The translations under genes were made by a program, and so were the position numbers. Of a stretch of 64,000 nucleotides of DNA, positions 3,650 through 54,258 are shown piece by piece (position 1 is the first letter of the stretch; every line of letters begins with the position of its first letter). The stretch is from contig JAPPOH010000005.1 of the NCBI GenBank assembly GCA_028818155.1, forward strand, positions 29,943 to 93,942, read 5' to 3'. The DNA is from Candidatus Woesearchaeota archaeon (GTDB lineage: Archaea; Nanobdellota; Nanobdellia; Woesearchaeales; UBA525). Below the pieces are notes generated by a model. That model ran no database searches. It was not told the DNA's origin and was given only the letters and a program-made list of their open reading frames with translations.

Positions 3650-5874
3650 TGTATCCTCCTCCGCACGAACCGGACAGCCAGCGCAATAGTAATTATCAGC
3701 ACAAGCACCAATTCTATCGTTGTAGCCGTTCCTTCACCACCAACTACTTGCCCAGTAATCCCGAGCAAACCCCCTTTCACATGGAGTTCCACAGTCACAA
3801 GCGAGCTGTCAGCGACAAACTCAGTTGCACCAGAACGAAGCAAACCAGGAACAGCAACGGAGAATGCGTGCCCTTTCACATCATGCACGACAAACTCAAA
3901 TACATCACGTAAAGCCCCGCGCCCCGTTCTCGTCCGATACTGCTCACCAGTCTCAAGATCGGTGAGCACAATCGGCAAGTTTGCTCGCCCTCCAATTACC
4001 TTTCCTATGATCGTTACAGGTTCGGGCACAGCAATCACCGTCGGCTCTTGTGCTTTCGGCAGCGCATCTGCAGCAATAGCAAACAACCCAAGACCTCTGA
4101 CTGAAGAAACGAGTGTCGTTCCTTCAAGAGCAGTTCGTTGTACACGCCATTTTCCATCGTATCTGTACAAGGCAACATCTTCAATTGTAATATCGTGCTC
4201 CGCAAGCCACGACTGAGGCACACGGAAGGTGACCTCTGCCTTCTCAAGCCCTTCTATCGTACCATCTAACAACAAATGAAAGTACCCGTACACAAGCTGC
4301 TCCATCGGTTCATCAACGTCCACACGCGCCAAACGGATATCATCAGGAATAGTGTTTGCTCGCACAAAGAGCGCCTGAATGAACTCATTGAAACGGTATG
4401 TTCGCTCAAAGAGTCGTTCTTCTTCTGGCGGCAGAAACTCCTCAAAGTACTCGAGAATGCCACCACCGCCACCACTTTGTACAAATTTCTTGAATGAAAC
4501 AAGCTCAGCGGCAACAGTTTGCGTGACATTCACCGTACCATCACTCACAGCAACAATGAATGAAAATTCTTGTAGCACTGCAGGCTGATAGCGTATGAAC
4601 CCCGTCTCAGAAATGGTGAGTCCTGCTGGTCCGCTCACGAGAGCCATAGTAAGAGCATCCCCATCAGGATCTACAGGCAAGAATTGATAGAGGGCTACCT
4701 GCTCTAGGACAGGCATCTCAACACGAACGGGGACGATAGGCGGATCATTTACATTCTGCACGTGCAGCGCGTACTGTTGAGTCGCTACGAGAACACCATC
4801 GGAGACATTCACTGTGATGTTGTGCACACCCACAGCACCATTTTCAGGCACCCAAACAACAGTATCGCCAACCACATGCATGCCCGTTGGCCCAGAAACA
4901 GAAACAGTCAACGGATCGTCATCATAATCGATGGCAGCGATCGTGTACGCATACTCCACATCTTCTGTCGCGTTCACAGGAGGGGTGCTCAGAATAATAG
5001 GCATATCTGGTATGTTCTGCACCGTAAGCAAGAATGTTTGCGATGTTTCCAGCACACCATCACTCAAAGTCACATTCACTACATGCTCTCCAACATCATA
5101 TGGTCCGGGCGTCCATGATAGGAGTGAGTCAACAAGCGTCATGTTTGTAGGACCAGTGAATGAGATAGAGATTGGATCACCATCCAGATCCTCAGCCACA
5201 AGCGAATACGTCCATTCCACGTCCTGATCAACTGTCGTAGTAGGGATTGAGAGGAAGGTTGGCGCGTCATTCACATTCTGTACAGTGATCGTGAACGATT
5301 GTGTTGTCGATAAATTCCCATCCGTCGCTATATACGTAACAGCATGTGTCCCAACTTGGTGTGCAGTTGGCCGCCAAGCAATAACCCCCGTCGTCATATT
5401 AACAGTCATGCCTGTAGGACCAGCAAGCAACCCATGCTGTATGGGCTGTCCGTTCCATTCGTACGTGTCCACATAATATGCGTACTGCTGATCTTGCACG
5501 GCGTCTACATTCGGCGTGGAAAGAATCACAGGAGGCAAATCAGGCAACGTCATATTCAAGAAAAGATCAACATCATGATGAATACCTGTGAGAACAACAT
5601 CTCTTGAGCTACTATGCACGGGATTCGATGCAGTAATCCTGACAGTATGCCCATTATTCCACGATAACGCAACAGAATATCTCCCAGGACCACGATCCGC
5701 ATACACAGCAAGCACAGCACTCGTATTGAGATCTTCAAACACCACAGTCACGGCACGTGGCACAGGAGTAATCCCGTCCAAAGCATAGATATGACCATCA
5801 ATACCACGAGGAGGCTCTACTGCAGCCACGGACGTCAGCGCGAGCAACGCTACCAAAAGAACGAGCCGTTTCAT
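3646..5874 (-). CDS. cell-surface protein (742 aa): signal peptide, CarboxypepD_reg-like domain, three cadherin-like repeats with VNDAP/VNDPP motifs, C-terminal TM anchor with basic tail
   Basis: Signal peptide MKRLVLLVALLALTSVAAV. Repeats QNVNDAPTF...DLDGDPISISF, QNIPDMPII...DYDDDPLTVSV and QNVNDPPIV...DPDGDALTM. C-terminus TTIELVLVLIITIALAVRFVRRRIQ. Start and stop overlap with both neighbours. Confidence 0.85.
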   Translation of the reverse strand: MKRLVLLVALLALTSVAAVEPPRGIDGHIYALDGITPVPRAVTVVFEDLNTSAVLAVYADRGPGRYSVALSWNNGHTVRITASNPVHSSSRDVVLTGIHHDVDLFLNMTLPDLPPVILSTPNVDAVQDQQYAYYVDTYEWNGQPIQHGLLAGPTGMTVNMTTGVIAWRPTAHQVGTHAVTYIATDGNLSTTQSFTITVQNVNDAPTFLSIPTTTVDQDVEWTYSLVAEDLDGDPISISFTGPTNMTLVDSLLSWTPGPYDVGEHVVNVTLSDGVLETSQTFLLTVQNIPDMPIILSTPPVNATEDVEYAYTIAAIDYDDDPLTVSVSGPTGMHVVGDTVVWVPENGAVGVHNITVNVSDGVLVATQQYALHVQNVNDPPIVPVRVEMPVLEQVALYQFLPVDPDGDALTMALVSGPAGLTISETGFIRYQPAVLQEFSFIVAVSDGTVNVTQTVAAELVSFKKFVQSGGGGGILEYFEEFLPPEEERLFERTYRFNEFIQALFVRANTIPDDIRLARVDVDEPMEQLVYGYFHLLLDGTIEGLEKAEVTFRVPQSWLAEHDITIEDVALYRYDGKWRVQRTALEGTTLVSSVRGLGLFAIAADALPKAQEPTVIAVPEPVTIIGKVIGGRANLPIVLTDLETGEQYRTRTGRGALRDVFEFVVHDVKGHAFSVAVPGLLRSGATEFVADSSLVTVELHVKGGLLGITGQVVGGEGTATTIELVLVLIITIALAVRFVRRRIQ

Positions 5875-16481: not shown

Positions 16482-16599
16482 TTTCCACCTTCTCTTCGTT
16501 GAACTGCTGCATCATCAGCTCAACTTTCGACGATACTTTCATCGCGTTCTCTTTGCAGAGGCGCTTGAACATGACGAATACTTCTTCGTCAATCGTCAT
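16468..16599 (-). CDS. small ORF (43 aa) with ribbon-helix-helix/CopG-like pattern, overlapping the start of the 3536-aa gene by 14 nt
   Basis: Manual translation gives MTIDEEVFVMFKRLCKENAMKVSSKVELMMQQFNEEKVENEKK, a beta-strand followed by two helices. Two TTTATAAA TATA-like boxes at 16655-16675 and the palindrome CCATATAAGTATGG at 16627-16640 lie upstream. It is absent from the ORF track because it is under 60 aa. Confidence 0.45.
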   Translation of the reverse strand: MTIDEEVFVMFKRLCKENAMKVSSKVELMMQQFNEEKVENEKK

Positions 16600-16654
16600 C
16601 GTTATTTTTCGTTTGCCCACTCGGAATCCCTATAAACCATATAAGTATGGTTCT

Positions 16655-16675
16655 TAGAGGGTGATTTATAAAGAG
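16655..16675 (-). promoter_or_regulatory. two TATA-box-like elements (TTTATAAA x2) in the 211-bp gap between the 2785-aa and 3536-aa genes; likely internal promoter for RHH-ORF + 3536/742/575-aa genes
   Basis: TTTATAAA at 16655-16662 and 16668-16675, 55-75 nt upstream of the small ORF start codon on the minus strand. Confidence 0.4.
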
Positions 16676-16692
16676 AATTTATAAATCTTCGC

Positions 16693-31000: not shown

Positions 31001-34000
31001 GTGTTCCATTCCCATCTACTATTGTCCGGGGTAGTTCAACGGTTACATTGTTTTTGAATTCCACAATGCGGAGCTCTGTATCACAATCAGTGTTATATCC
31101 GTCCAGATTTGAAATATTCACGAGAACAACTTCCCCATAACGAGGGCTATTTGTTGTCTCATTGAGATCAATCGCAATACGCCTTCCCCATGACGTGTTC
31201 CACCACGGAGCACCGGTTGTTGAAGCATTTGTGTAAATGATATCTGTCGTAACATTCGTATTCAATTGTGCCCATGAGGAATTGAACACTGTCACAGTGA
31301 TATTTACAATCTCTCCCTGCTGATAATTCGACTTATCAGTCACCACCGAGATGTTTACTGGCAGCGTTATGTTTACAGTAACAAATCGAGTTTCTGACGT
31401 ATTCACATTCCCAGACGCATCACTACATGTGACGTTCCACTCATGTATTCCATTCCCCAGTGTTTGCACTCTGTTAGTTAACGTGTTGTTAGGGGCATTG
31501 AAATTCAAGTTACCACTATCAACAACACCATCAATCGTTAGATTGCATGTCATATTCGCAGAAAAGTCATCAATAGGTGTGAAATTGAAGTTGATTGCTG
31601 GAATTAGTGCAGTTGTATCGTTCAGCGGCAAACTTAAGTTGATGAACGGTGGTATTCCATCAATATTTATCGTGTATGGTCCATTATACGCGGTGCCATT
31701 CTCACCCAAGTTATCTGTACAATTCACCGTCCACGTATGCACGCCCGTAGCCATGTTGTTCACAATGAAGGAGTTGTTTCCTGGCACGGTGAGTCCGGTC
31801 GTATTAGATCGGTTAACAACATCGTCAATGATGAGCGAACAATTGCCGATGCCATCTCCATCTTGTACATAGTATGTAAAGTTGACAGTATTCCCAGACT
31901 GTGTCGTCCCATTTACAGGTACTTGTAACTCAATGAATGGCGGACCTACAATCGTGAAGTTTCTTGTTTCAGAGATATTATAGTTCCCTGCTTCATCAAC
32001 ACACGTAACATTCCAGAAGTGTAACCCATCAGGCAGTGTGAGATTTCTATTTATCATGACCTCTGCACAGCCGTCAGGAGGAGGTCCAGAGACATTTCCT
32101 TCCTCGAATGCACCCCACACCATGAGTTCAGCAGCGTGTGTGTCACACGTATCTGCAGCGTCTTGTTCGCAGTAGCGGAAGTCCATGCCGCCTGCAACAA
32201 CGCTTCGGGCCCAGCGATACTGTGTGTCTTGTCCACCAGCGTCATCGTTTTGTGCCACCATAACAATGGGTGTTGTATACGCAGGTGTGAATGTTGCCGC
32301 AGTCCACGTCGAACTTGCAATAGCAGCACTACTGTTCTGGTATCCAACGATTTGTTCGTCAGGGGTGATCGCCACCCACCCAATCGTTTCTGTTGCGTCA
32401 CTCCCTGTACAATCATTCGCTATTCCCTCGTGCACACAACCAGTGAGCCCTGTCTGTGATGTTGTCGTATCAGCATCATCAAACCAGAAGCCCATCGCCA
32501 TTTCACCAGCATTTTGCGTGTATGTTTGCATCGTTCCCCACACGTGCGGTACACCACTCAGCGTTTTCCCGAAGGACATAGTTTGTTCGACGCCATTACC
32601 TTGGATGCCTGTTGACGTTCCTGCAGCGATCCAGTCATAGCCAGCGATCGCATCAACATCAATAACAACATAATGGACGTCCTCAAGTTCAGTTGTCGTG
32701 TCACACGTCGTTGCGCCATTGTCGCTGCACAAGCTGACGTTGAATCCTGTGGTTGTTACATCTTTCACGACAGCAACGAAGCCGTTATCGTCTTCGGCTG
32801 CTCCTGCGTTCTGGCTTGCAGGCGTTGCAATCACAACAGGGGTTGATGTATACGTTCTATTGTACGTGATGTATGCGAACTGGAAATCTTCAACCTGTAC
32901 CGCACCAGCTTCACCAATCGTCTCATCACAGCTTTTATCGTATGCCCGTGCAGGTGATGGGATGTTGGAATCTTCCACCACACCATTTATGGTGATGTTA
33001 CAGAGAAGCTCAGTATCAAGGTTGTCGAAAACTGTGAAGTTTAAGCTCGCCACACCTTCTGTGAATGTGATACCGTCCGTTGTGTTGAGGAGCGCGAGCG
33101 GTCCTATAGTATCAACGGTGAAGTTTCTTGTGCTGCTGCTCCCCTCAAATCCACCAAGATCAGTGCAGTTCACACTCCACAAATGCACACCATTCGAAAT
33201 ACCAGTAATGTTAAAGAAATTCGGCTGGTTTGCTGTTACGCTTGTATTTGTTTCATTTGCTACACCATCAAGAATAAGTGTACAATTACCTATTCCAATA
33301 GGATCAACCGGTGTGTAGTTGAACAGCACAGTACTTTCATTCAAGAATGCGTTCGCTGCTGGCGCATTCAGGGTGACTGTGGGGGGTCCTGTGTTCTGTG
33401 TGAAATAGAATGTTTCGGATGTAGCACTATTTCCTGCTTGATCAATACATGTAACGCTCCAATTGTGTGTTCCATCAGGCACCGAGAAGACGGTGACGTT
33501 TGCCTGTCCGCCAACATCCGCTGCGACGTTGCTCACATTAAGGATATCGTCGATCGTCAAGTTGCAGATCAGCGTTCCTGTGAAATCATCTGTGCCGTTC
33601 CAACCAAACGTTACATTCGACGTTGGTGGGCTCGTGTTGTTTCCAGGAGTATCAAGTGCAATACTTGGTGCTACGTTGTCAATTCGCACATCAATTGTTT
33701 CATTATTCTCTGCACCAAACGTATCGTTACACTCAGCAGTTAGATTGTAGAGCGCGTTCGCAGCTACTGTCGTGTCTGACGAATTGTAGAAACTCGTTGC
33801 ATTTGCCTTTAGTGTTCCTTCAGGTCCAATACCGATGGTGTCGTTATGATAGTAGTAATCACACACATCGACACCGTTATCATCTTCCGCGCTGATATTG
33901 GAGAGTTGTGTCAACCGAATATTTGGCCGCATTCGCGTCCGCACTTCAACGTAATCTGTGAAAATATCAGCACGAGCATCAATACCTGCTGCAGTTGTTT

Positions 34001-37000
34001 GGTTTCCAACGATGAGGATGTGGAGATCACCGTCATCAAGAATATCATCGACGCCTTGTAATTCGAGTTCAATGTACATATCTGCAGCTATCGTGTTGTT
34101 CGCTTCATGTATTCGAGTGTATGAGTTACTCGTGTGGTTGAATACGTAAATATAGAATGTATCTGCTGTCTGGAATGTTTGCTGTGTAACATACCCTTCG
34201 TAGAAGAAGAGGATTTCTTCTATATCGATCGGCGATTCAGTCACTTCAAATCGGAAGCTCTGATAGACGGACTCTCCAGTATCTGTTGTTGTTGTCGTCG
34301 CAAGTCGAACGTTATTCGACGTTGTGACAGATGAGTAACTCGAGGTTGATATTTCTGTTTCTCGAACGGGGGTACTTGTCGGCAGCAAACTTCCGTTTGC
34401 ACCATCATATAACGCATGTATGTTACTTGGATGCGTGATACCTGTGTATGTGTACGTGCTCACCACATCAGCAGGTTCGATAAATTCAATGAGTGGCTCA
34501 TGTGTCATTCGCTGCCACTCGAATTCAATGTACGCTCCAGGACTTGTCGCTGTGCCATCATTTTCAAAGTCACCACATCCAACATCTGTGAATGCCCGCC
34601 CTGTCCAGAGTGCACACGAGAGTGTGTCATCTTCTCCCTGATCATATACAAAGATTTCATCATTTCCAGGACTGCTCGATGTGATAACATGTCCAACATC
34701 TCCTCCGCCTGGTTGTCCAATAGGATTTCCTTCACCCCAATCACTAAACGACCATGAATTTGAGCTAATCGTGTAGAAGCCACCTTCAGGGAAGTCTTCA
34801 TTCGCATCAACCCACACATATACGATCTGGTCACCTGATTTTTCAATGGCACAGCTTGTTGAATGCAGGGCTGCTGTTCCTTCGTTCCCACCACATTCAC
34901 TTGCAGTATCTTGTACGGGTGTTTCCGAGGATAGTGCTTTCGAGAATGCACTGCCATCCCAGTAGCCACCATCACGATCAGCATCCTGATCACACGTCAT
35001 AACACCGATGTAATCGTGTGCAAACGACCCTGTCGATGGTGATTCTCCACACAAATGCACCTCTCGGGCTTCAGCACCAAGACCATCGTAGATGTTGCCA
35101 AGATGCGTCCACGCATTTGTGCTTGGCTGGAATCGCCATGCATAGAGATCGTCTGAGTTATTCCCGTATGCGAAGAGCATTTCTCCAGAATTTCCTTCCC
35201 ATGCACATGAGAACTGCTTTCTGTCATCTCCATCAGCTTCTAATGTAACGTTGATCGTATGGTTAAACACATTGTTGTCTCCATCCCACACGGTTGCGTA
35301 AATATCACCTGTTCCCGCATCATTTTGTATGCCCATGCCGATGAGGTTAGTGTCCTTTTGTGCACAAAGCTCAAGCCATCTGAAGTCGTTGTTCGGCGCT
35401 CCACTGATACTGTATGTCTGCTCTGTACTGAGATTATCTCCATTCCACAATCTGTAAGCGAAATCCCCATCAAGCCCATTTGCTGTCTCATACACGACGA
35501 GACAATCTTCACTGACGAGATCTTCACATGCGACATCGAAACTACGCTGCACATCCAAGCCCCGATTCGGCTCTACTTGTGTGATATTATGCCACACTCT
35601 GTTCACGATGTCGAATACCGCAAAATCAATAGAGTTATCGACTTCTTGAATCATAGCATAGCACTCGGGCCGCCGTTGAGCACAAACAAATCGATACCAT
35701 GAGATATTGCTTCCAAGTGCGCCAAAGATGTTTTCTTCTTCGCCAAGTACACCGGTCCAATTCCTCTGTAGCGGATTCTCTGGATCAGTGAGGTTTGCGT
35801 ACAGGAGTATTCCAACTTCACCAAACTTCGGTAGTTCAAGATCATTGAACTCTGATGGGGCGTTGACAGTGAATGCACGTTGTTCACTCGTATTCTTATT
35901 CGCACGATTATCAGTGCACGTGACATTCCACGTGTGTGCTCCGTTCGCAACTTCAACAGATCTAGTCGTTGCAGTGCCATTGGGAGAGGGGATGTTTCCG
36001 AGACGAATAGCACCATCAACGATAAGATCACACGCAAGCTCAGGATCTGTATTGTCCGTTGCAGTCCAGTTGAATGTGATCAATGAGACAGCAAAGCTTT
36101 CTGACACGAGCGGTGCGTTGAGGACGATAGTGGGCTCCTCTTCATCAACAATACAGGTGCCACCCCACTCCCCTCCGTCTTGGTAGAACCCTTTCCAGAC
36201 AAGATCCCCAGAGCTGTTTGTGAATGCTACTACAAAGGAACCCTCACAGATGCCAAAGCCAAGCTGCGTGTCGGCGCCAATCGCATCATGTAGGAGGTAT
36301 GTCGCATCAGGCTCACTTGTAATGTTGAATGGTCCTGCCACATAGCTGCCGTTATTATCGAAGACTGAGGCTTTGATGCTGTTATCTGCTCGGTCTTGCC
36401 AGACGACAGCGATATTGCTCGTCCCTTGGAACTCAACTTCTGCGGCAGCAACTCTCGTTTCAGTCCCTAAGTCAGTGTCAACTGCAGCAGAGCCGATTGT
36501 TGTGAACGTATCACCTCCAACATCAAGCACAGTGAGATTGACGTGGTTGACGGCACTGTCGAAGTACACAATACCAACGCGTTCTCCTCCAATGTGTGCA
36601 ATCGCAACCTGTCCTGTTTCACCAATATTCGTGTCAATATCAGTTATGTTGTTGATGATGCTCGCACCTGTGTTTGGAATGATTCTTGCGCTCAAGTCAT
36701 TCTGACTGTCATCGAACCATGCTGTTACGGCGCGCGTGCTGTTCGTTGTTGTACAATCGACAAGGTTCTGGAGTGTTTGTGCAGGCGCAATGTTTCCATC
36801 AATGTTGAACTCACTCACACTCAACGTGCCATCATTCGTGTAGATCTCTCCATCATAGTCGTTATTCAAATCTTCTCCATACGCGACAATGAACTCTGCA
36901 CCGTACTGGCAGACGCCCATGTCTGTGAAGATATTTACATCTGCGTCAACCTGTGTTTGTCCCACCACCGCAGAGCCATTTTCGTGATAGATGTAGAAGT

Positions 37001-40000
37001 CAACATCTTCTTCAGGACCATCATTCACGATGACAACGAAATGTGTTTCATTGATCGGTGCCGCTGCGATGCGACTGGAATCGTCAACAGTTGTATCGAT
37101 ATCAACTTCTGGCACGAGGAGTGTTCCATTTGCGTCCCAAACTTCAAATGATGTGTGATTACTATCAACATCAACCCACGTCACAATAATCGTTGTGTTA
37201 TCGAGTGCCGCGAGTGCTACATCTTGTCCCTGGCTGGCATCGACGTATCCGGTAGGCACATCAACTGTGACGAACCGCGTTTCACTCGTGTTTACGTTGC
37301 CAAATGTATCTTGACACGTGACGTTCCAAATATACAAGCCATCTGACAGAATGAGCGATTTGTTTGCCGCTACACCTGCGCTCGATCCAATTGTGGCTTC
37401 CACATTGCCATTTATGGTCAAGTTACAACTAAGGAACACTGCCTGATCGTCATCAGCTGTCCAATTGAAATCAGTGAGTGATGTGGGTACTGTCGAATCG
37501 TTCGCTGGGGAATTTAGTGTGATGTTTGGTGCGATGTCATCAAACCCACAGAAGCCATCCCATGTACTTCCATTCACGAGGAAGAGTTTTCGCTCACCAA
37601 CGGCAGAGCTATTCGTGAATGATACAACGAATGTCCCATTGCAGAGCCCAGCTTCGTGCTGGGAATTGTATCCTGCAACACCGTGCAATCTGTACGTATC
37701 ATTGATATTTGTGCTAATGTTAAAGGCCGGTGTGATGAGCGTTCCTGTTCTGTTGTACACAACAGCCTCAATGACATCTTCTCCTTGATCATACCATGTC
37801 AGCACGAACATGCTTTCATTGTCTGCTTCAATTTCTGCAACATCTAATCGCACTTGCGAAGTAACAGACGTGTCAATGTTAACAGGGCCAACAGCCGCTG
37901 AGATGGAATCTGCGGATGTATCGACGACAAGCATTTTCACAGTGCTCTCTGGAGAATCATAATAGAACATTGCTATGTCTTCGTCTCGTAACCCTGCGAG
38001 TGCCATCTGTGATGTGCCACCAACATCAAGATCTGCTCCTGATGGCCCTGCAACGATAGATCCTGTTTCATCGTAGAGTGCTGCTGTGAGGTCGTCTGTC
38101 GCGTCATCAAACCAGCTCACGAACCACCTCGTGTCGCTCACCGGCACAACGGAAACGAGATTCTGTAAGTTTTGGTCAGGCGCGACGTTATCGTCAATAT
38201 CGAATTCAGTAGCTTCAACACTGCCGTTGAGATAGTGGATCATGCCGTGAAGATCATCGCCGCTCGTGTCATCGACCCACGCAGAAACGATTCGATTTTG
38301 AATGTATGCTGATGACACGTCAACATTTACGCCCGCATCCGTATCAAGAATGAATGGCGCACCGATCGTACCTTGTTCAAATGCGCCCCAGTACACGAGC
38401 TCACCTGTGTGCGTGTCACAATCATCATTCCCGTCTTGTTCACAGTAGCGGAAGTCCATGCCACCAGCGACAACATTTCGGGCCCACGGATATTGTGGAT
38501 CTTGTCCACCGTCATCATCGTTTTGTGTCACCATGACAATAGGGTCTGCAAAGGTCGGTGTGAATGTTGCTGCTGTCCAGTCAGAGTTGCTGATGTCGGC
38601 ACTTCCTGATTGGAAGCCACCTATTTTGTGATTTCCCGTGTCAATCGCAATCCAACCAACAGTTTCAGTGGAGTCTCCTCCTGTACAGGTATCTCCTGTG
38701 TCTTCATGGACACAGCCAAGAACAGTCGTATGACTTGCGTTTGTATCCGCTCCCTCAATCCATGTGTTCATCGCCATTTCACCAGCAGTTTGCGTGTATG
38801 TTTGTGGTGTCGCGAAGACAAAGGGTGTTCCTGAGAGTGTTTTGCCAAAGGAAACGGCATTATCTGCCCCATTGTGATTTATCCCAGCGGTTGTTCCTGC
38901 AGCGATCCAGTCATATGCTGTGATCGCATCTGGGTCAACGACGACGTAGTGGACCGTTTCAAGATCTGTGTCAGTGTCACACGTTGTTGCGGCGTTGTCT
39001 CGACAGAGACTGACGTTGAATCCTGTGCTCGTTACATCTTTTACGACAGGAACGAAGCCGTTATTGTCATCGGCTGCTGCTGCGTTTTGGCTTGCAGGTG
39101 TTGCAATCACAACAGGCGCATTCGAGTATGTGTTTGCGAACGTGATGTATTGGAAATTAAAGTCTTCAACTTGTGTGCTCCCTGCTTCGCCTATTGGTCG
39201 GTAGGTGTGGTGTCCGCTTTTATTGTAGACGTAGATGTAGTTTGTATCATCATCTGCGTCATAGAGATTGATCAAGAAGTGTGTCGTGTTGATTGTCGCT
39301 GCATCAATGCGTCCCCAGTTTGACGATCCATCTTGCACATCGGTATCAATGTCAATTGCTCCATACAGATCTGTCTCATTTGTGTGTATAATTCTGAAAC
39401 TTGCATCCTGACTTGTCTCTTCTATGTATGCAACAACGTAGAGATCTTCATCTAGTGCTGTGACGTCTGATTCGACGACAGGCTCATCGGAAAACTCTGG
39501 GTCGATTGCCAAGTACCATGGTCGTGCTTCGGTAATTGTTGTTGTGTCGTACGCGACTTTCGATTGTCCAAGTTGGTAGAGTTCTGGGGTGATTTTCGGG
39601 ATTGTTGCTGTGTAGCTCACTGTGGAGCCGTTGCTGAGGTTATTCCACGTAAGGAAAATGTTCGTCGTATCTTGTGTTTGCGTTGCTGTGCTTGTGATGT
39701 TTGTGAAGTTGATGGGCAAGACTTCTGTATAGTTGAACGCACCGCTATGGTTGAATGACGTGACTGTTACAGACACAGCGAGCAGCTCTTTGAATGGATC
39801 TATCGTCACGGGCGCATTCCTGATGATGTCGAACGGATAGTGTTCCTGCACGAGGAAGAAGGAGAGCATGCTCTGGTTCACATTCACATCGTGTGCTTCC
39901 ACGAAGAGATCGTATGTTCCTTCTTGTTCTGGTGTGTATATCGCTTCGTACACTCCATCAGATGTCTCTATGATCGTTGTGATATTCGTCGTTATGTTAT

Positions 40001-41267
40001 TCGGGTCTGTGACAAGCAGTTGTATATCTGCGTTACTCACGAGGAATCCGTTGTTGTCGAGCACAACCATGACGATTTCTGCTGTCTCATTCGGGCGATA
40101 GATGGGCTTTCTTGTGTTGACTGTGGCAACGCCTGTCTCTGCGTAGCCAGGATCGCCAGGGTAGAGGAGAATATCGTACTGTTCTCCTGGCCTGAGGTAC
40201 TTGTGCAATTCCCATGTGCCGAAGCATGTTTGTGTGGTGAAGTTCCATTTTGCACACTTCCAGAGTTGGCTTCCTTGTGCCGTACTCGTCGCTGTTGCAT
40301 TACTGAAGTTCAAATTGTCAAGGTTAATCGCGTATGCTTTGAGTACAGGATCGCCGTTGATCTCAACGCTTTCTTTCGGGAGATCATCAATGCCAATTTC
40401 AATCGTTTCCTGCGGTACACAGTCGTGAATATCTAGCTTTTGTACTGCTCTACTGTCTGGCGTGACGTGGACTTCGTATGAGTTGTTGCTGTTTTTCTCA
40501 AACTTGACAGCTGCGTATCGTCCTTGCCCTTCATTATTCACAACGCCGAAGGTAAAGAGGCCATGCTCATTTTCAAACTCTTGTGCCGGAACGTCAACAA
40601 TGAGTGCAGGTTCTGGTTCTTCTATCTCATCACCGGGCTCTGGTTCGTCAGGTGTTGGTTGTGGAAGGAGTGCTGGTTGGACGGTGAATGCATGTCTCCC
40701 TACGACGGCACCATTCTCGGAGATGATGATTTCGTGCAAGCCTGGATACTTTGGCACGAACGGTGAATCTCGCCATGGGCCGAAGTATTTGAACAAGCCA
40801 CCAGGGCCGTTGATGATGATCTTGATATCTTGTGTTGGGGGTGGTGTGATGGATATGTGGACGTTTTGCTCTGCTCTCGGTTCTTCGCTGATGGTGATTG
40901 TCCTTGTCTTATTCGTCTCGTTCGCTTCTTGGACGGTGAATATGTCTTGGTGCACAACCTGTCCTGAGCTGTCGATGAGTTGGACGGTGTATTCGCCCGG
41001 TGTTTTCGGCACGAATGGAACAACCTCCCCTGGTTCATCTAGGAGCCTGTACTTTGCTTCCGGCGCGAAGATCATGATACGTGAGCTGTCGTTTGTTGTG
41101 TTGATGAGGACGGGTTCTCCAACGTTGTAGAGTGTTTTGTCTGTGATTGCTATTGTGAGTGGAAGGATTACTAAGAGTGCTACAATGAAGGCGTACTTGG
41201 CTGTGGTGGATTGTCCTCTAGCCATGTTTCCACCTCTTGATGATCGTTGGATAGAATGTGTGTCCAT
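25047..41267 (-). CDS. giant secreted/anchored multi-domain protein (5406 aa; about 5392 aa if it starts at the alternative ATG 41225). It has an N-terminal signal anchor, two copies of the ~270-aa Cys-rich cassette domain, at least two CARDB-like domains, many Ig-like and FN3-like repeats, and the conserved C-terminal domain
   Basis: Uninterrupted 16.2-kb ORF. N-terminal hydrophobic segment AKYAFIVALLVILPLTIAITD. The alternative start 41225 overlaps the upstream regulator's stop by 8 nt (CATGGCTAG). The C-terminal ILWDTSDGGSA...GIYDYEIKIPATL matches the 2785-aa protein. Confidence 0.9.
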   Translation of the reverse strand: MDTHSIQRSSRGGNMARGQSTTAKYAFIVALLVILPLTIAITDKTLYNVGEPVLINTTNDSSRIMIFAPEAKYRLLDEPGEVVPFVPKTPGEYTVQLIDSSGQVVHQDIFTVQEANETNKTRTITISEEPRAEQNVHISITPPPTQDIKIIINGPGGLFKYFGPWRDSPFVPKYPGLHEIIISENGAVVGRHAFTVQPALLPQPTPDEPEPGDEIEEPEPALIVDVPAQEFENEHGLFTFGVVNNEGQGRYAAVKFEKNSNNSYEVHVTPDSRAVQKLDIHDCVPQETIEIGIDDLPKESVEINGDPVLKAYAINLDNLNFSNATATSTAQGSQLWKCAKWNFTTQTCFGTWELHKYLRPGEQYDILLYPGDPGYAETGVATVNTRKPIYRPNETAEIVMVVLDNNGFLVSNADIQLLVTDPNNITTNITTIIETSDGVYEAIYTPEQEGTYDLFVEAHDVNVNQSMLSFFLVQEHYPFDIIRNAPVTIDPFKELLAVSVTVTSFNHSGAFNYTEVLPINFTNITSTATQTQDTTNIFLTWNNLSNGSTVSYTATIPKITPELYQLGQSKVAYDTTTITEARPWYLAIDPEFSDEPVVESDVTALDEDLYVVAYIEETSQDASFRIIHTNETDLYGAIDIDTDVQDGSSNWGRIDAATINTTHFLINLYDADDDTNYIYVYNKSGHHTYRPIGEAGSTQVEDFNFQYITFANTYSNAPVVIATPASQNAAAADDNNGFVPVVKDVTSTGFNVSLCRDNAATTCDTDTDLETVHYVVVDPDAITAYDWIAAGTTAGINHNGADNAVSFGKTLSGTPFVFATPQTYTQTAGEMAMNTWIEGADTNASHTTVLGCVHEDTGDTCTGGDSTETVGWIAIDTGNHKIGGFQSGSADISNSDWTAATFTPTFADPIVMVTQNDDDGGQDPQYPWARNVVAGGMDFRYCEQDGNDDCDTHTGELVYWGAFEQGTIGAPFILDTDAGVNVDVSSAYIQNRIVSAWVDDTSGDDLHGMIHYLNGSVEATEFDIDDNVAPDQNLQNLVSVVPVSDTRWFVSWFDDATDDLTAALYDETGSIVAGPSGADLDVGGTSQMALAGLRDEDIAMFYYDSPESTVKMLVVDTSADSISAAVGPVNIDTSVTSQVRLDVAEIEADNESMFVLTWYDQGEDVIEAVVYNRTGTLITPAFNISTNINDTYRLHGVAGYNSQHEAGLCNGTFVVSFTNSSAVGERKLFLVNGSTWDGFCGFDDIAPNITLNSPANDSTVPTSLTDFNWTADDDQAVFLSCNLTINGNVEATIGSSAGVAANKSLILSDGLYIWNVTCQDTFGNVNTSETRFVTVDVPTGYVDASQGQDVALAALDNTTIIVTWVDVDSNHTSFEVWDANGTLLVPEVDIDTTVDDSSRIAAAPINETHFVVIVNDGPEEDVDFYIYHENGSAVVGQTQVDADVNIFTDMGVCQYGAEFIVAYGEDLNNDYDGEIYTNDGTLSVSEFNIDGNIAPAQTLQNLVDCTTTNSTRAVTAWFDDSQNDLSARIIPNTGASIINNITDIDTNIGETGQVAIAHIGGERVGIVYFDSAVNHVNLTVLDVGGDTFTTIGSAAVDTDLGTETRVAAAEVEFQGTSNIAVVWQDRADNSIKASVFDNNGSYVAGPFNITSEPDATYLLHDAIGADTQLGFGICEGSFVVAFTNSSGDLVWKGFYQDGGEWGGTCIVDEEEPTIVLNAPLVSESFAVSLITFNWTATDNTDPELACDLIVDGAIRLGNIPSPNGTATTRSVEVANGAHTWNVTCTDNRANKNTSEQRAFTVNAPSEFNDLELPKFGEVGILLYANLTDPENPLQRNWTGVLGEEENIFGALGSNISWYRFVCAQRRPECYAMIQEVDNSIDFAVFDIVNRVWHNITQVEPNRGLDVQRSFDVACEDLVSEDCLVVYETANGLDGDFAYRLWNGDNLSTEQTYSISGAPNNDFRWLELCAQKDTNLIGMGIQNDAGTGDIYATVWDGDNNVFNHTINVTLEADGDDRKQFSCAWEGNSGEMLFAYGNNSDDLYAWRFQPSTNAWTHLGNIYDGLGAEAREVHLCGESPSTGSFAHDYIGVMTCDQDADRDGGYWDGSAFSKALSSETPVQDTASECGGNEGTAALHSTSCAIEKSGDQIVYVWVDANEDFPEGGFYTISSNSWSFSDWGEGNPIGQPGGGDVGHVITSSSPGNDEIFVYDQGEDDTLSCALWTGRAFTDVGCGDFENDGTATSPGAYIEFEWQRMTHEPLIEFIEPADVVSTYTYTGITHPSNIHALYDGANGSLLPTSTPVRETEISTSSYSSVTTSNNVRLATTTTTDTGESVYQSFRFEVTESPIDIEEILFFYEGYVTQQTFQTADTFYIYVFNHTSNSYTRIHEANNTIAADMYIELELQGVDDILDDGDLHILIVGNQTTAAGIDARADIFTDYVEVRTRMRPNIRLTQLSNISAEDDNGVDVCDYYYHNDTIGIGPEGTLKANATSFYNSSDTTVAANALYNLTAECNDTFGAENNETIDVRIDNVAPSIALDTPGNNTSPPTSNVTFGWNGTDDFTGTLICNLTIDDILNVSNVAADVGGQANVTVFSVPDGTHNWSVTCIDQAGNSATSETFYFTQNTGPPTVTLNAPAANAFLNESTVLFNYTPVDPIGIGNCTLILDGVANETNTSVTANQPNFFNITGISNGVHLWSVNCTDLGGFEGSSSTRNFTVDTIGPLALLNTTDGITFTEGVASLNFTVFDNLDTELLCNITINGVVEDSNIPSPARAYDKSCDETIGEAGAVQVEDFQFAYITYNRTYTSTPVVIATPASQNAGAAEDDNGFVAVVKDVTTTGFNVSLCSDNGATTCDTTTELEDVHYVVIDVDAIAGYDWIAAGTSTGIQGNGVEQTMSFGKTLSGVPHVWGTMQTYTQNAGEMAMGFWFDDADTTTSQTGLTGCVHEGIANDCTGSDATETIGWVAITPDEQIVGYQNSSAAIASSTWTAATFTPAYTTPIVMVAQNDDAGGQDTQYRWARSVVAGGMDFRYCEQDAADTCDTHAAELMVWGAFEEGNVSGPPPDGCAEVMINRNLTLPDGLHFWNVTCVDEAGNYNISETRNFTIVGPPFIELQVPVNGTTQSGNTVNFTYYVQDGDGIGNCSLIIDDVVNRSNTTGLTVPGNNSFIVNNMATGVHTWTVNCTDNLGENGTAYNGPYTINIDGIPPFINLSLPLNDTTALIPAINFNFTPIDDFSANMTCNLTIDGVVDSGNLNFNAPNNTLTNRVQTLGNGIHEWNVTCSDASGNVNTSETRFVTVNITLPVNISVVTDKSNYQQGEIVNITVTVFNSSWAQLNTNVTTDIIYTNASTTGAPWWNTSWGRRIAIDLNETTNSPRYGEVVLVNISNLDGYNTDCDTELRIVEFKNNVTVELPRTIVDGNGTHYCEVFFAANITANAFDQDRYFAYFNNTGASGSPANATVASRGNVQRGTVDGTGADFIVELPTPVTVANSFLLFTANSADTSPDGNRFTGNITNSTHLHFSRYLGTAAANISWQVIEHEDITMQQGNNTLTSGTLTTTADIAEVDVTKSFIVVSASGDSTSTSLNNIAFVRGHFVNSTQIEFERLTGGAESNVAWQVVTWEGTRVQNGTATMDAGDTIETVVINAFNDTRSFIIMSRTIANDTGLDENHVRAEFVGSDRVSFERSVGANGVAMIDWFMVEMPRRTVTQVDDSAFSTDTSVAINEVVLNRTFHISTWESTGGGTTYTNAMLIATLTNGTNLSYDKQTASNTNTVTTFVVELSNYSSIEAILTGHQIHLQQDINESGVGGNFTNLWNSSGRDFGNYSAVGRAVADPDSLGVDHAIFGIASDIFPPEVTILAPPNNTIDDVTDITFVYTANDLGTTIANCSLLLNGEINQTNTTITEMVNQSFLIENMGEGDYSWTVQCTDTVGNIGNATNGPFRLIIDETDPVVTAIDPDGTVHSSNDILFNFTVADNVDLLLFCNISVDEGTYWNTTTAVNGSVTTGAVSGIGDGFHYWNVTCYDDNNNTGISNTLNFTNDAAPLVVLTTPVDGYGTPVGNISFNYTVVESSLSNCSLIIDGIVNQTKNSSEIPNQDGDDPNEFNLTGIPEGVHNWTVTCVDTNGFSGSGSPVREFHVDSGTPTVTLNAPANNATFFVTTVDFNFTAIDNIDPVLDCNVTVNGDVNITTTADNGTATVVTGSGFTAGNYSWNVTCIDNTGFVNTSETLNFSVSPDVNVILNSPDDNASDSDGDVTFIYTPQSVADFDSGGFCELIIDGSNNQTDGTITNNAENNFTLESLNEGSYTWQVNCTDNDVVRGASEIRTIYIDFTNPTVQPHHPNGTTFAVSTILFNWTAIDNIDPTLSCNVSLDSVLVAGDIDSPNGSVANTTISSINDSLHLWEVSCTDDSGRIGASDTFNFTVNEPPKVVLDAPSNGTRAAVTSFMLNYTPTDNSENIGNCTLIVNGLNNQTNTTVSHNVTNDFNLTALAHGEYNWTVSCIDLSSNEGINDTNYTFYVDLFGPTIILNLPLDLETLNSNNVTFNWTPIDHPGSTVNCSLFVTNASNNITVTGITGTANTDFNTTVAGLADGSHDWNVTCSDDLGNTNNSLTQSFVINQPDLVLNETSRINFNETNPDLGETINITANVSNIGGTGANDVLVQFWDGLPSAGGTLIGNDTQTVAFNSSTIFSVSWNITFGYHEIFVSADPDGLIGELVENNNNASRNISLLFANITQPLENNITADTTPQIDFNISDFTGGNLSYVIYVDDTANGQVGVVQDLQNNSLNITALADGVHTIIVQANDTLQRFKNSTPLTIRIDTTAPNVTFLTQNDSWYAVTNVTIEFNITDVFSANLNYTFYLDGTLNHTNTTTNNTRNTVNLSNLAEGQHTVTVEAEDELGNIDNSTVLTFYVDLTPPVPNTTTANNTWFNTLTPGIDFNITDNLDPILNYTIYVDGVANTNGTSTNGVEATATLNAITEGNHTIIVQALDEAGHVVNDTEIVIYVDVTPPNVTLLTPLNDTNLSSTSVTLNFTVSDNLGTPLICNLTLDDVVVSVNVSVTNGSFHNFTVNDLNSGYHFWNATCIDNATNAGISETWQFFVELSDLEINAGNITFSNSTPIENQTVEVNATVFNIGNLNATNITVQFFLGDPDLGGVQINGNATIASLGIGENTTVSMNHSAVIGLNRIYVLVDPPLATNGSIAEENESNNEAFRDFNVGHFEIFAGTSGNELKISDASIISAFKWNQTNVTGSNVFVADTDSSLIFTSLQAIGRNTTNGTDTGNDDFEEIDQQLNATSLNDSVNLTWTSGGAPVASITLQSFKRTITDIPVVNSTNTSSFVTGILWDTSDGGSAYNTSQDIVFVTIMNESQAGQYGIYDYEIKIPATLRDYILGGGSVSFYTELR
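32090..32930. repeat. copy B of ~820-bp intragenic repeat cassette (within 5406-aa gene)
   Basis: Same alignment as copy A. The antisense ORF 32698..33318 peptide MSHVVAPLSLHKLTLNPVVVTSFTTATKPL... parallels MSVSHVVAALSRQRLTLNPVLVTSFTTGTKPL... at 38968. Confidence 0.8.
38370..39210. repeat. copy C of ~820-bp intragenic repeat cassette (within 5406-aa gene, ~5.4 kb from copy B)
   Basis: Same alignment as copies A and B. Confidence 0.8.
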
Positions 41268-54030: not shown

Positions 54031-54258
54031 ATGGCAAAAAAGGTTGCAAAGGTTGGCGTCAAGAAGGAGGGAGGCTATCTCTACTTCGTTGACAAACAAG
54101 GAGACGTTAGTCGAGCAAAGATGGCTCGCGGCGGAAAGAAAGGCGGTAAGCCAGAGAAAGTTGCGAAAGCAGGCGTCAAGAAGGAGAAGGGATACCTCTA
54201 CTTCGTTGATAAAGACGGCGACATTAGCAACGCAAAGATGGCTCGCGGTCGAAAGTAA
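54031..54258 (+). CDS. small highly basic protein (75 aa) made of two tandem ~37-aa modules (VAK[VA]GVKKE.GYLYFVDK.GD[VI]S.AKMARG)
   Basis: Internal duplication is visible in both protein and DNA. An SD-like GAGGTGG lies 7 nt upstream, a TATA-like TTTAAAA at ~53958, and T-tracts follow the stop. Confidence 0.6.
   Translation: MAKKVAKVGVKKEGGYLYFVDKQGDVSRAKMARGGKKGGKPEKVAKAGVKKEKGYLYFVDKDGDISNAKMARGRK

What the first reader, a model, noticed from the sequence alone, without database searches (positions are those of the whole stretch)
5871..41267. The three giant genes are paralogs with conserved N-terminal architecture
After the signal peptide, all three giant proteins (3536, 2785 and 5406 aa) share a ~60-aa beta domain (LRLLDADGTITFPVIFAPLEAGEHIF / YRLMGEPSSSIAFTPREAGDYVI / YRLLDEPGEVVPFVPKTPGEYTV). 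About 200 aa later they share a domain with the motif YAIDPSA(L/V)NFTN.T...ATG..LWKC(I/V)EW(D/N)F..Q.C.G.W....I.PGE.YD....DPG(Y/F)(G/A)E. This indicates duplication and diversification of one ancestral giant gene inside the cluster. It also gives a family signature that could be used to find homologs.
Basis: seen in the sequence. Interest (0 to 1): 0.65.

Follow-up and report, generated by a model that had tools for sequence, protein, structure and literature searches.

The report
Giant archaeal surface-protein paralogs, shared end-domains
Three huge neighbouring genes of a tiny symbiotic-type archaeon (Woesearchaeota) encode related secreted, sugar-coated surface fibres. They share a previously uncatalogued ~120-residue "LWKC" domain, which also turns up in hundreds of other giant proteins and in ultrasmall CPR bacteria.

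Summary
The three minus-strand ORFs (3536, 2785 and 5406 aa) exist as stated. Their N-termini align at E = 3e-27 to 6e-36 with composition correction, and shuffle z-scores are 43-53 for the LWKC domain and up to 17.6 for the small beta domain.

The genes are homologs that share a signal peptide, one or two small beta domains, an unconserved linker and the LWKC domain. They also share long collinear blocks, and G2 and G3 share a C-terminal cap. However, each gene has a closer full-length relative in another genome than inside the cluster. The split is therefore old, and the bodies are mosaics: a lectin cassette is present three times at 72-77% nucleotide identity.

The LWKC domain is a real family signature, with 862 clusters at 50% identity and 1-7 copies per protein. 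It has no Pfam or NCBIfam model and no PDB fold match. It is not specific to this family. It also occurs in CPR bacteria, as N-terminal arrays ahead of a C-terminal peptidoglycan-binding anchor.

Head-to-tail arrays of family genes recur in at least four other archaeal genomes or contigs. The most likely function is glycosylated adhesion fibres, which is inferred and not shown.

The parts
5871..16481 (-). G1, giant secreted protein, 3536 aa (NCBI MDD9953412.1, 'hypothetical protein', Candidatus Woesearchaeota MAG)
   Evidence: ORF. Exact match to the public protein. It has 15 copies of a ~95-aa Ig-like repeat and 6.1 N-X-S/T sequons per 100 aa. Weak BclA_C, fn3 and Big_7 Pfam hits.
16158..16421 (-). 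G1 small N-terminal beta domain (aa 21-108), directly after the signal peptide (aa 1-20, 16422-16481)
   Evidence: Alignment, HMM, shuffle test, hydrophobic segment.
15564..15926 (-). G1 LWKC domain (aa 186-306)
   Evidence: AF2 model with pLDDT 90.5 and pTM 0.81, all-beta. C266, C276 and W280 of G1 are invariant in 43 diverse copies.
5874..6491 (-). G1 type-B C-terminal cap domain (aa 3331-3536), unrelated to the G2/G3 cap
   Evidence: Matches the extreme C-termini of P0085, P0043 and P0117 (E = 1e-38 to 2e-21). No match in G2 or G3.
16693..25050 (-). G2, giant secreted protein, 2785 aa (NCBI MDD9953414.1 from a start 8 codons later)
   Evidence: It has 11 Ig-like repeats. Big_13 scores above the Pfam cut-off and H_lectin scores just below it.
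24736..24987 (-). G2 small N-terminal beta domain (aa 22-105)
24103..24480 (-). G2 LWKC domain (aa 191-316)
20509..21342 (-). G2 H-type-lectin cassette (aa 1237-1514)
   Evidence: 77% aa and 76.5% nt identity to G3 aa 692-971. H_lectin hit at aa 1252-1301.
16696..17190 (-). G2 type-A C-terminal cap domain (aa 2621-2785)
   Evidence: Strictly C-terminal in G2, G3 and 20 of the 150 best family hits. No Pfam hit. The AF2 model was made on the G3 copy.
25047..41267 (-). G3, giant secreted protein, 5406 aa (5392 aa from the start used in the public records; NCBI MDD9953415.1, 'Ig-like domain-containing protein'); its stop overlaps the G2 start by 4 nt
   Evidence: It has 21 Ig-like repeats. Big_13, CARDB, Big_3_3, H_lectin, MG2 and Filamin score above the Pfam cut-offs.
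40926..41174 (-). G3 small beta domain, copy 1 (aa 32-114)
40674..40913 (-).
   Evidence: G3a vs G3b z = 9.8. The same two-copy layout occurs in P0122, P0085, P0125, P0129 and others.
40134..40514 (-). G3 LWKC domain (aa 252-378), followed by an MG2/filamin-like domain (aa 384-466)
38355..39194 (-). G3 H-type-lectin cassette A (aa 692-971)
32078..32870 (-). G3 H-type-lectin cassette B (about aa 2800-3063)
   Evidence: 72% nt identity to the G2 cassette. H_lectin hit at aa 2800-2849.
25050..25541 (-). G3 type-A C-terminal cap domain (aa 5243-5406)
   Evidence: AF2 model with pLDDT 84.6 and pTM 0.83. No PDB fold match.
3646..5874 (-). U742: secreted He_PIG/Big_9/cadherin-like protein with a C-terminal TM helix and basic tail; its start overlaps the G1 stop by 4 nt. 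It is the only membrane-anchored product of the cluster.
1922..3649 (-). U575: secreted sequon-rich protein with 2 copies of the same Ig-like repeat; overlaps U742 by 4 nt
   Evidence: A homolog (630 aa, E = 8e-36) lies next to the G1-like gene in another Woesearchaeota MAG.
16468..16599 (-). 43-aa ORF in the 211-nt G2-G1 gap, preceded by two TTTATAAA (TATA-box-like) elements just after the G2 stop; it overlaps the G1 start
   Evidence: Sequence. Also called as a gene in the public record. No Pfam hit.

Best explanation
G1, G2 and G3 are old paralogs within a large, unnamed family of giant secreted surface proteins of Woesearchaeota-type DPANN archaea.

Shown:
- Each protein has a Sec-type N-terminal hydrophobic leader.
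- A conserved 'head' follows. It has one or two ~85-aa small beta domains, an unconserved linker, and a ~120-aa all-beta LWKC domain with two invariant cysteines and an invariant tryptophan.
- Next comes a long variable 'stalk' of ~95-aa Ig-like repeats (15, 11 and 21 copies). It is interspersed with H-type-lectin, MG2, CARDB and C1q-like modules.
- Each protein ends in one of two alternative, strictly C-terminal cap domains: type A in G2 and G3, type B in G1.
- None has a transmembrane anchor. All carry 5-6 N-glycosylation sequons per 100 residues.
- The genes sit head-to-tail with 4-nt overlaps. They lie in a ~39-kb same-strand cluster that ends with a TM-anchored cadherin-like protein (U742) and a smaller relative (U575).

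Inferred:
- The proteins are exported, N-glycosylated and displayed as long fibres that bind carbohydrate-rich surfaces, such as a host or partner cell or the sponge matrix.
- The conserved cap holds the fibre on the producer's envelope, possibly through U742.
- The conserved head is presented at the distal end. This polarity is inferred from the bacterial (CPR) homologs. In all seven examined, 3-4 LWKC domains lie N-terminal to a peptidoglycan-binding anchor at the extreme C-terminus.
- The paralogs differ in stalk length and lectin content. They diversify by block shuffling and cassette exchange, not by recent whole-gene duplication.
For: Homology and architecture.

Secretion and glycosylation features.

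Adhesion-type domains above the Pfam cut-offs: Big_13 117 bits, CARDB 55, Big_3_3 54.6, H_lectin 34.3, MG2 33.8.

Family breadth: 862 clusters, 1-7 LWKC copies per protein, first copy at median residue 214.

The N-terminal beta domains occur only at N-termini and always upstream of LWKC, in 28 of the 150 best hits.

Company the LWKC domain keeps: in 42 shorter proteins the co-occurring domains are PG_binding_1 (7), MG2 (4), Disaggr_repeat (2), and one each of Laminin_G_3, CBM96 and DUF2341. No enzyme domains were found.

Consistent polarity in the bacterial proteins, whose bacterial origin is confirmed by dcw-cluster and RuvA/FemAB neighbours.

Old paralogy.

Tandem arrays elsewhere: an upstream ORF ends in the type-A cap directly before an LWKC-bearing gene in L012, L015, L024 and L028.

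Cassette exchange.

The source organism is a Woesearchaeota MAG. The domain occurs in 25 DPANN-type genomes.

Literature: giant Ig-like surface proteins are regarded as host-interaction devices in other DPANN (PMC10266531). Glycosylated Ig-like and lectin-like surface proteins are described in Nanobdella (bioRxiv 10.1101/2023.10.27.564410). Woesearchaeota and Pacearchaeota share modules of uncharacterised extracellular proteins (PMC8204110).
Against: - No experiment or expression data bear on function.
- The LWKC and cap domains have no significant PDB fold or sequence relative, so a binding role is an inference from context.
- Only weak, non-significant jelly-roll-type hits were seen (Eph ligand-binding domain, CBM, cupins; E >= 0.065, TM <= 0.33).
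- The proposed polarity rests on analogy with bacterial proteins of a different architecture.
- How a protein without a TM helix, PGF-CTERM or similar signal stays on an archaeal cell is unknown.
- The link to U742 is adjacency only. No U742 homolog was seen beside the relatives examined.
- The domain tree has bootstraps below 50 and cannot order the duplications.
Confidence: 0.6

Rival explanations
1. The three proteins are structural envelope components (S-layer or sheath-like coat proteins) rather than adhesins. The conserved head and cap would mediate lattice or self-assembly contacts.
For: They have a signal peptide, very dense N-glycosylation sequons, Ig-like folds and no TM helix. These are the same features used to nominate the S-layer candidate MJ1_0160 in Nanobdella (bioRxiv 10.1101/2023.10.27.564410). 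The strictly terminal conserved domains could be assembly interfaces.
Against: At 2785-5406 aa they are several times larger than the ~1000-aa S-layer candidates cited. Three different paralogs carry lectin, MG2 and CARDB modules and variable mosaic bodies, which is unlike a single conserved lattice subunit. The bacterial homologs are wall-anchored multi-LWKC proteins and not S-layer proteins.
Confidence: 0.2
2. The shared N-terminal features reflect independent acquisition of mobile extracellular modules (domain shuffling) by unrelated giant genes, and not descent from one ancestral giant gene.
For: LWKC is a repeatable module with 1-7 copies per protein. It is found at internal positions, in many architectures and in both domains of life. 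The H-lectin cassette has clearly moved between G2 and G3. G1 has a different C-terminal cap. The linker is unrelated among the three.
Against: The same ordered head (signal peptide, small beta domain, linker, LWKC) occurs in all three and in at least 25 other family clusters, always at the N-terminus. G2 and G3 also share the cap. Collinear blocks of 500-980 aa at 36-41% identity link G1-G2 and G2-G3. Relatives elsewhere align over 2000-3500 aa.
Confidence: 0.15
3. This is the first reader's reading: the three genes arose by recent tandem duplication of one gene within this cluster and then diverged in place.
For: The genes are adjacent, on the same strand and overlapping, with a shared head and blocks. 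One cassette is still 76% identical at the DNA level.
Against: Each paralog has a clearly closer relative in other genomes. Apart from the cassette there is no DNA-level similarity between the genes. Tandem family arrays exist in other Woesearchaeota genomes, so the arrangement is inherited.
Confidence: 0.05

Closest known systems
Giant surface proteins of Nanohaloarchaeota ('SPEARE' proteins; SVXNc_0300 at 9409 aa and BNXNv_0298 at 8880 aa; PMC10266531)
   Same: They are also DPANN archaeal proteins with a Sec signal peptide followed by an Ig-like domain and long arrays of Ig-like/fibronectin-like repeats. They are acidic, take up a large share of a ~1-Mb genome, and are proposed to bind host surfaces.
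   Different: Those proteins are described as membrane-anchored, with a cytoplasmic VirB4/TraG-like ATPase domain and an adjacent VirB4-like ATPase gene. G1-G3 have no TM segment beyond the leader and no ATPase domain hit. No ATPase gene was found among the neighbours scanned. Here there are three tandem paralogs with LWKC heads and cap domains.
Glycosylated Ig-like and lectin-like surface proteins, and the S-layer candidate, of Nanobdella aerobiophila (bioRxiv 10.1101/2023.10.27.564410)
   Same: They have signal peptides, many N-glycosylation sites, Ig-like folds and lectin-like modules, and some lack a C-terminal TM helix. They lack detectable homology to characterised families.
   Different: They are about 1000-1300 aa rather than 2800-5400 aa. 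No homology to them was tested here. The head and cap domains are not described there.
Bacterial giant repeat adhesins (Bap/LapA/MpIBP-type, with Big_13/BIg repeats)
   Same: The logic of a long stalk of Ig-like repeats with ligand-binding modules and a dedicated anchoring end is the same. Big_13, Big_3_3 and CARDB Pfam domains are shared.
   Different: Those proteins are exported by type I secretion, with C-terminal RTX repeats and an N-terminal retention module (from general knowledge). The proteins here have a Sec-type leader, no RTX hit, an archaeal host and heavy N-glycosylation potential.
CPR (Paceibacterota-type) wall-anchored proteins with LWKC x3-4 and PG_binding_1 (e.g. HXK35081.1)
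   Same: They contain the same LWKC domain (per-copy E-values from 2e-8 to 1e-31), with the invariant Cys-Cys-Trp core.
   Different: They are bacterial, 850-1080 aa, K-rich and poor in sequons. They have no small beta domain, Ig stalk or cap, and are anchored by a C-terminal peptidoglycan-binding domain.

Membership tests
One homologous family comprising G1, G2 and G3 (paralogy) | Statistically significant similarity that is not due to composition | tested here: met
   BLASTP with composition correction gives E = 3e-27 to 6e-36 for the N-termini and down to 2e-153 for body blocks. Shuffle z-scores reach 53.
One homologous family comprising G1, G2 and G3 (paralogy) | Same ordered domain architecture at both ends | tested here: inconclusive
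   The N-terminal order is identical in all three. The C-terminal cap is shared by G2 and G3 only; G1 has a different cap.
Recent in-cluster duplication | The paralogs are each other's closest relatives | tested here: not met
   Each has a higher-scoring full-length and N-terminal relative in other genomes. The domain tree is unresolved.
Any Pfam-A (2025) or NCBIfam (release 20) family covering the LWKC domain | A profile hit over the domain | tested here: not met
   No hit overlaps the domain at E <= 1 in G1-G3 or in multi-copy proteins. DUF2341, which NCBI uses to name some relatives, lies more than 1000 residues away from LWKC.
Known solved folds (PDB) for the LWKC and type-A cap domains | Foldseek E <= 1e-3 or a profile-sequence match | tested here: not met
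Nanohaloarchaeal SPEARE-type giant proteins | Signal peptide plus Ig-like repeat ectodomain | tested here: met
Nanohaloarchaeal SPEARE-type giant proteins | Membrane anchor and a C-terminal VirB4/TraG-like ATPase domain, with a neighbouring VirB4-like ATPase gene (PMC10266531) | tested here: not met
   There is no TM-like segment beyond the leader and no ATPase domain in G1-G3. None of the flanking ORFs scanned is a VirB4-like ATPase.
Archaeal S-layer proteins | Secreted, N-glycosylated and rich in Ig-like folds | tested here: met
   (sequons are potential sites only).
Archaeal S-layer proteins | Most abundant envelope protein, forming a 2-D lattice | not testable with these tools
   This needs expression data and imaging.
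Bacterial T1SS RTX giant adhesins | C-terminal RTX nonapeptide repeats and a T1SS signal | tested here: not met
   There is no HemolysinCabind/RTX Pfam hit. The context is archaeal: Orc1/Cdc6, PolD, RadA and TrmB.
Pfam Ig-like and lectin modules (Big_13, CARDB, Big_3_3, H_lectin, MG2) | Score above the Pfam gathering cut-off | tested here: met
   G3: Big_13 117.3 bits (cut-off 27), CARDB 55 (22.7), Big_3_3 54.6 (27), H_lectin 34.3 (24), MG2 33.8 (32.8). G2: Big_13 31.8 (27). All G1 hits are below the cut-offs.

The most novel reading that the evidence does not exclude
The LWKC domain would be a dedicated host- or partner-recognition module, shared (probably by lateral transfer) between the two radiations of ultrasmall episymbionts, DPANN archaea and CPR bacteria. 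It would be displayed at the distal tip of wall- or envelope-anchored fibres. The tandem giant genes with alternative cap domains would form a conserved, so far undescribed attachment-fibre system of Woesearchaeota. Its head and cap domains would have folds without solved relatives.
Probability: 0.25. Interest if true: 0.7.

Novelty: new variant of a known kind. Interest (0 to 1): 0.45.

Why it matters
How DPANN archaea and CPR bacteria recognise and hold on to their partners is largely unknown, and most of their extracellular proteins are unannotated.

This analysis defines three sequence handles that no Pfam or NCBIfam model covers:
- the LWKC domain, found in 862 clusters;
- an N-terminal small beta domain;
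- two alternative C-terminal caps.

Together these mark a widespread family of giant surface proteins. The analysis also shows that the LWKC module is shared across the archaea-bacteria divide among ultrasmall organisms.

These handles allow systematic cataloguing of the genes. They allow tests of lateral transfer between CPR and DPANN. They also point to small, confidently modelled domains (pLDDT 85-90) as targets for expression, glycan-binding assays and structure determination.

For this particular locus the result is more modest. It is a well-behaved member of that family, not a unique system.

Tried and rejected
- The word-indexed protein search, run with the 3-sequence and the 43-sequence LWKC profiles, found 0 and 1 hits. 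This was a sensitivity limit of that tool and not absence, because the exhaustive profile search found 862 clusters.
The 3-sequence alignment worked.
- The sequence profile against PDB gave only a spurious 19-residue antibody match.
- A neighbour-joining tree of the 126-column LWKC alignment had all relevant bootstraps below 50, so it was not used to order the duplications.
- A scan of viral contigs for LWKC found nothing.
- Rfam and tRNA scans of the window found nothing.
- The idea that LWKC is the same as DUF2341, prompted by NCBI names of relatives, was rejected. The two lie more than 1000 residues apart.
- Membership of the SPEARE family was rejected because there is no TM anchor and no ATPase.
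- The idea that the 43-aa ORF between G2 and G1 is a ribbon-helix-helix regulator could not be supported, since it has no Pfam hit.
- The bacterial-type promoter and terminator scan of the G2-G1 gap was uninformative for an archaeon.
- Compositional bias as an explanation was rejected.
Full report
**1. What is there**

The window carries three uninterrupted minus-strand ORFs: 5871-16481 (G1, 3536 aa), 16693-25050 (G2, 2785 aa) and 25047-41267 (G3, 5406 aa). Together they span 35.2 kb.

The G3 stop overlaps the G2 start by 4 nt. The G1 stop overlaps the start of a 742-aa gene (U742), which in turn overlaps a 575-aa gene (U575). Only the 211-nt G2-G1 gap is non-overlapping. That gap holds two TTTATAAA elements and a 43-aa ORF.

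The context is archaeal:
- Orc1/Cdc6 lies next to U575.
- The PolD subunits DP1 and DP2 lie just beyond the window.
- TrmB, Lrp/AsnC, glutamate dehydrogenase and RadA lie on the other side.

G1 is identical to GenBank MDD9953412.1. G2 and G3 match MDD9953414.1 and MDD9953415.1 from slightly later start codons. All come from a Candidatus Woesearchaeota MAG (ENA ERZ23496502, a 214.6-kb scaffold). They are annotated only as 'hypothetical protein' or 'Ig-like domain-containing protein'.

**2. Checking the observation**

All quoted peptides are present.

- *Leader:* each protein has a single N-terminal hydrophobic segment and no other TM-like segment.
- *N-terminal alignments:* they align at E = 2.8e-27 (G1/G2), 1.4e-29 (G1/G3) and 6.2e-36 (G2/G3) with composition-based statistics.
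- *Shuffle test, LWKC region:* against 1000 shuffles, z = 43-53.
- *Shuffle test, small beta domain:* z = 17.6 (G2/G3a), 11.6 (G1/G3a) and 3.8 (G1/G2).
- *Shuffle test, linker:* the linker between the two domains is unrelated (z <= 0.8).

Three refinements apply:
- G3 has two copies of the small beta domain (aa 32-114 and 119-198).
- The written consensus fits G1 and G2 exactly and G3 only loosely.

**3. The LWKC domain is a large, uncatalogued family**

An exhaustive profile search of 1.84 billion representatives found 862 proteins at E <= 1e-3, 718 at E <= 1e-10 and 100 at E <= 1e-30. Most are 2000-7000 aa long.

Among the best 150 hits the domain occurs 1-7 times per protein. The first copy starts at a median of residue 214.

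In an alignment of 43 diverse copies, the two cysteines and one tryptophan (C81, C91, W95 in domain numbering) are invariant. A73, L78, K80, W84, G104, Y107, D115, P116 and E120 are nearly invariant.

AlphaFold2 with that alignment gives a confident all-beta model of about ten strands (pLDDT 90.5, pTM 0.81). The cysteines bracket the conserved loop between the LWKC strand and the W95 strand.

No existing catalogue covers the domain:
- No Pfam-A or NCBIfam model matches it at E <= 1, even in proteins with six copies.
- Foldseek finds no PDB or BFVD relative. The best is E = 0.065 with TM <= 0.33, a set of non-significant jelly-roll-type hits.
- A PDB sequence-profile search is empty.
- DUF2341, which NCBI uses to name some relatives, is a different and distant region of those proteins.

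**4. Who has it**

A pattern scan of one genome per species found 25 loci. All are in DPANN-type MAGs: Woesearchaeota, Nanoarchaeota, Micrarchaeota, 'Euryarchaeota SM23-78', and several records labelled 'uncultured Methanosarcinales', one of which is a 774-kb chromosome.

The domain is also bacterial:
- The P0027 cluster (HXK35081.1, Candidatus Paceibacterota) carries four LWKC copies plus a C-terminal PG_binding_1 domain. It is encoded beside MraZ, RsmH, a PBP transpeptidase, a Mur ligase and GreA.
- The six-copy protein P0002 sits beside RuvA, FemAB, and EAL- and SLH-domain genes.
- By contrast, the seven-copy protein P0001 sits among archaeal ribosomal-protein and eIF genes.

About 16 of the 150 best hits have the bacterial profile: short, K-rich and with fewer than 2 sequons per 100 aa. 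The archaeal giants have a median of 4.6 sequons per 100 aa.

In 42 shorter family proteins, the co-occurring Pfam domains are PG_binding_1 (7), MG2 (4), Disaggr_repeat (2), and one each of Laminin_G_3, CBM96 and DUF2341. No enzymes were found. In all seven PG_binding_1 proteins, the LWKC array is N-terminal and the wall anchor is at the extreme C-terminus.

**5. Architecture of the three giants**

Behind the head, an iterated HMM finds 15 (G1), 11 (G2) and 21 (G3) copies of a ~95-aa Ig-like repeat. The same repeat is present twice in U575.

Pfam adds Big_13, CARDB, Big_3_3, H_lectin, MG2 and Filamin above the cut-offs in G3. It adds Big_13 in G2. In G1 only sub-threshold BclA_C, fn3 and Big_7 hits appear.

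G2 and G3 end in a conserved ~165-aa domain, 'cap A'. Its motif is NSTN.S.F.TGILWD...YDYEIK.P..LR.Y. It lies at the extreme C-terminus in 20 of the 150 best hits. It has no Pfam hit, a confident AF2 model (pLDDT 84.6) and no PDB fold match.

G1 ends instead in an unrelated ~205-aa 'cap B'. Three other giants share it, again strictly at the C-terminus.

The small beta domain is found only at N-termini, in 1-3 copies and always upstream of LWKC, in 28 of the 150 hits.

All three proteins are acidic and lysine-poor, with 5-6 N-X-S/T sequons per 100 aa.

**6. Are they duplicates made in this cluster?**

They are homologs. Long collinear blocks link them:
- G1 2234-3158 with G2 1531-2480 (36% over 982 aa).
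- G2 900-1759 with G3 2442-3299 (41% over 901 aa).
- G2 279-781 with G3 1314-1802.
- G2 and G3 also share their C-termini.

The blocks are in a different order in the different proteins, so the bodies are mosaics.

One ~830-nt H-lectin cassette is present three times: in G2 at 20509-21342, and in G3 at 38355-39194 and around 32078-32870. The copies are 72-77% identical at the DNA level. The genes otherwise share no DNA-level similarity. The cassette therefore moved later than the genes diverged.

Each paralog has a closer relative elsewhere:
- G1 vs P0108, from another Woesearchaeota MAG: 42% over 2533 aa and 1766 summed bits, against 737 for G1 vs G2.
- G2 vs P0099, P0142, P0148 and P0121: 1540-1720 bits, against 1292 for G2 vs G3.
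- G3 vs P0131: 1948 bits, against 1275 for G3 vs G2.
- The heads alone behave the same way.

A domain-only tree is unresolved.

Tandem arrays are not unique to this genome. In L028, the G3-like gene is followed by another family gene with the same head. In L012, L015 and L024, an ORF ending in cap A is followed directly by an LWKC-bearing gene. A U575 homolog also flanks the G1-like gene in L027.

The paralogs are therefore old, and the array is inherited rather than newly generated here.

**7. How it probably works**

The following are shown by the sequence: export signals, potential for heavy glycosylation, repeat stalks, lectin-type modules, the absence of a membrane anchor, and conserved terminal domains.

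The functional model below is inferred. The proteins would be long glycosylated fibres or adhesins on the surface of an organism of the DPANN type. The variable stalk and lectin cassettes would provide reach and binding specificity, and the conserved ends would provide generic functions.

The polarity in the CPR proteins (distal LWKC array, proximal peptidoglycan anchor) suggests that the LWKC head is the outward-facing end. It also suggests that the caps mediate retention, possibly through the TM-anchored cadherin-like U742 encoded in the same overlapping gene string.

This fits published views of giant surface proteins in other DPANN (PMC10266531; bioRxiv 10.1101/2023.10.27.564410). It also fits the many uncharacterised extracellular families that Woesearchaeota and Pacearchaeota share (PMC8204110).

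An S-layer or coat role is the main functional rival.

**8. Comparison and novelty**

The kind of object, a giant Ig-repeat surface protein in a DPANN archaeon, is known.

G1-G3 are not SPEARE-type proteins. They have no TM anchor, no VirB4-like ATPase domain and no such neighbour gene. They are also not RTX adhesins.

What appears new, within the libraries available here, is:
- the head and cap domain set;
- the size of the LWKC family;
- its occurrence in both DPANN archaea and CPR bacteria;
- the recurrent tandem arrangement.

I rate it a new variant of a known kind, of moderate interest. The locus itself is an ordinary member of a family that deserves a name.

Noticed in passing
L029 4538-7468 and L030 535-3465 (the P0157/P0027 cluster); L032 8001-11654 (P0002): The LWKC domain also occurs in bacterial, CPR/Paceibacterota-type proteins. 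These have 3-6 N-terminal copies, and seven of them carry a C-terminal PG_binding_1 anchor. The genes lie next to the dcw cluster (MraZ, RsmH, PBP, Mur ligase) or next to RuvA and FemAB. This suggests a surface module shared between ultrasmall bacteria and archaea.
   Followed up: partly
window 20509-21342, 38355-39194 and about 32078-32870: An ~830-nt cassette that begins with an H-type lectin domain is present once in G2 and twice in G3, at 72-77% nucleotide identity. It is the only DNA-level similarity between the giant genes. It looks like later cassette exchange or gene conversion.
   Followed up: partly
window 16696-17190 and 25050-25541 (cap A); 5874-6491 (cap B): There are two unrelated conserved domains that always sit at the extreme C-terminus of family members. 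Cap A is in G2, G3 and 20 of the 150 hits. Cap B is in G1 and 3 of the 150 hits. Cap A has no Pfam hit and its confident AF2 model has no PDB fold match; cap B was not scanned on its own, but no Pfam hit fell on it in the whole-protein scan of G1.
   Followed up: partly
L012, L015 and L024 (upstream flanks); L028 10001-25426: In four other archaeal genomes or contigs, a gene ending in cap A is followed directly by another LWKC-headed gene. Head-to-tail arrays of this family are therefore a recurrent arrangement. In L028 the G3-like gene appears to be split by a frameshift, which leaves a 156-aa cap-A ORF.
   Followed up: partly
window 16468-16692 (minus strand): The only real intergenic gap in the cluster holds two TTTATAAA (TATA-box-like) elements directly after the G2 stop. 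It also holds a 43-aa ORF (MTIDEEVFVMFKRLCKENAMKVSSKVELMMQQF...) that overlaps the G1 start. The ORF has no Pfam hit, and its role is unknown.
   Followed up: partly
window 41218-41697 (minus strand): A 159-aa ORF abuts or overlaps the G3 start. It has only sub-threshold winged-helix hits. Its N-terminus is weakly similar (E = 1.6e-7 over 59 aa) to the 198-aa ORF that overlaps the start of the G3-like gene in L028. It may be a conserved small partner or regulator.
   Followed up: partly
window 3646-5874 and 1922-3649 (minus strand): U742 (He_PIG/Big_9/cadherin-like) is the only product of the overlapping gene string with a C-terminal TM helix and a basic tail. U575 shares the Ig-like repeat and has a homolog (E = 8e-36) beside the G1-like gene of another Woesearchaeota MAG (L027).
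   Followed up: partly
window 306-1598 (minus strand) and L026 26206-30611: Orc1/Cdc6 is followed by the PolD small and large subunits directly downstream of the cluster. The giant-gene array may therefore lie near a replication origin. No origin repeats were searched for.
   Followed up: no
window 54035-54258: Two tandem copies of a 107-nt direct repeat (78% identical, spacing 117 nt) lie in an apparently intergenic stretch upstream of the ORF at 54344. This was not examined.
   Followed up: no
L002 (OZ246410.1), L011, L014 and L023: Several LWKC-bearing records are titled 'uncultured Methanosarcinales archaeon', and one is a complete 774-kb chromosome. That size is typical of DPANN, so the taxonomic label may be wrong. 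This was not checked.
   Followed up: no
L028 120-7271: Upstream of the G3-like giant gene in this unrelated contig lie an RHH_1 protein, a 1024-aa PKD/Big_13 protein and a 1196-aa DUF87 (HerA/VirB4-like) ATPase. This recalls the ATPase association reported for nanohaloarchaeal giant proteins. No counterpart was found in the window.
   Followed up: no
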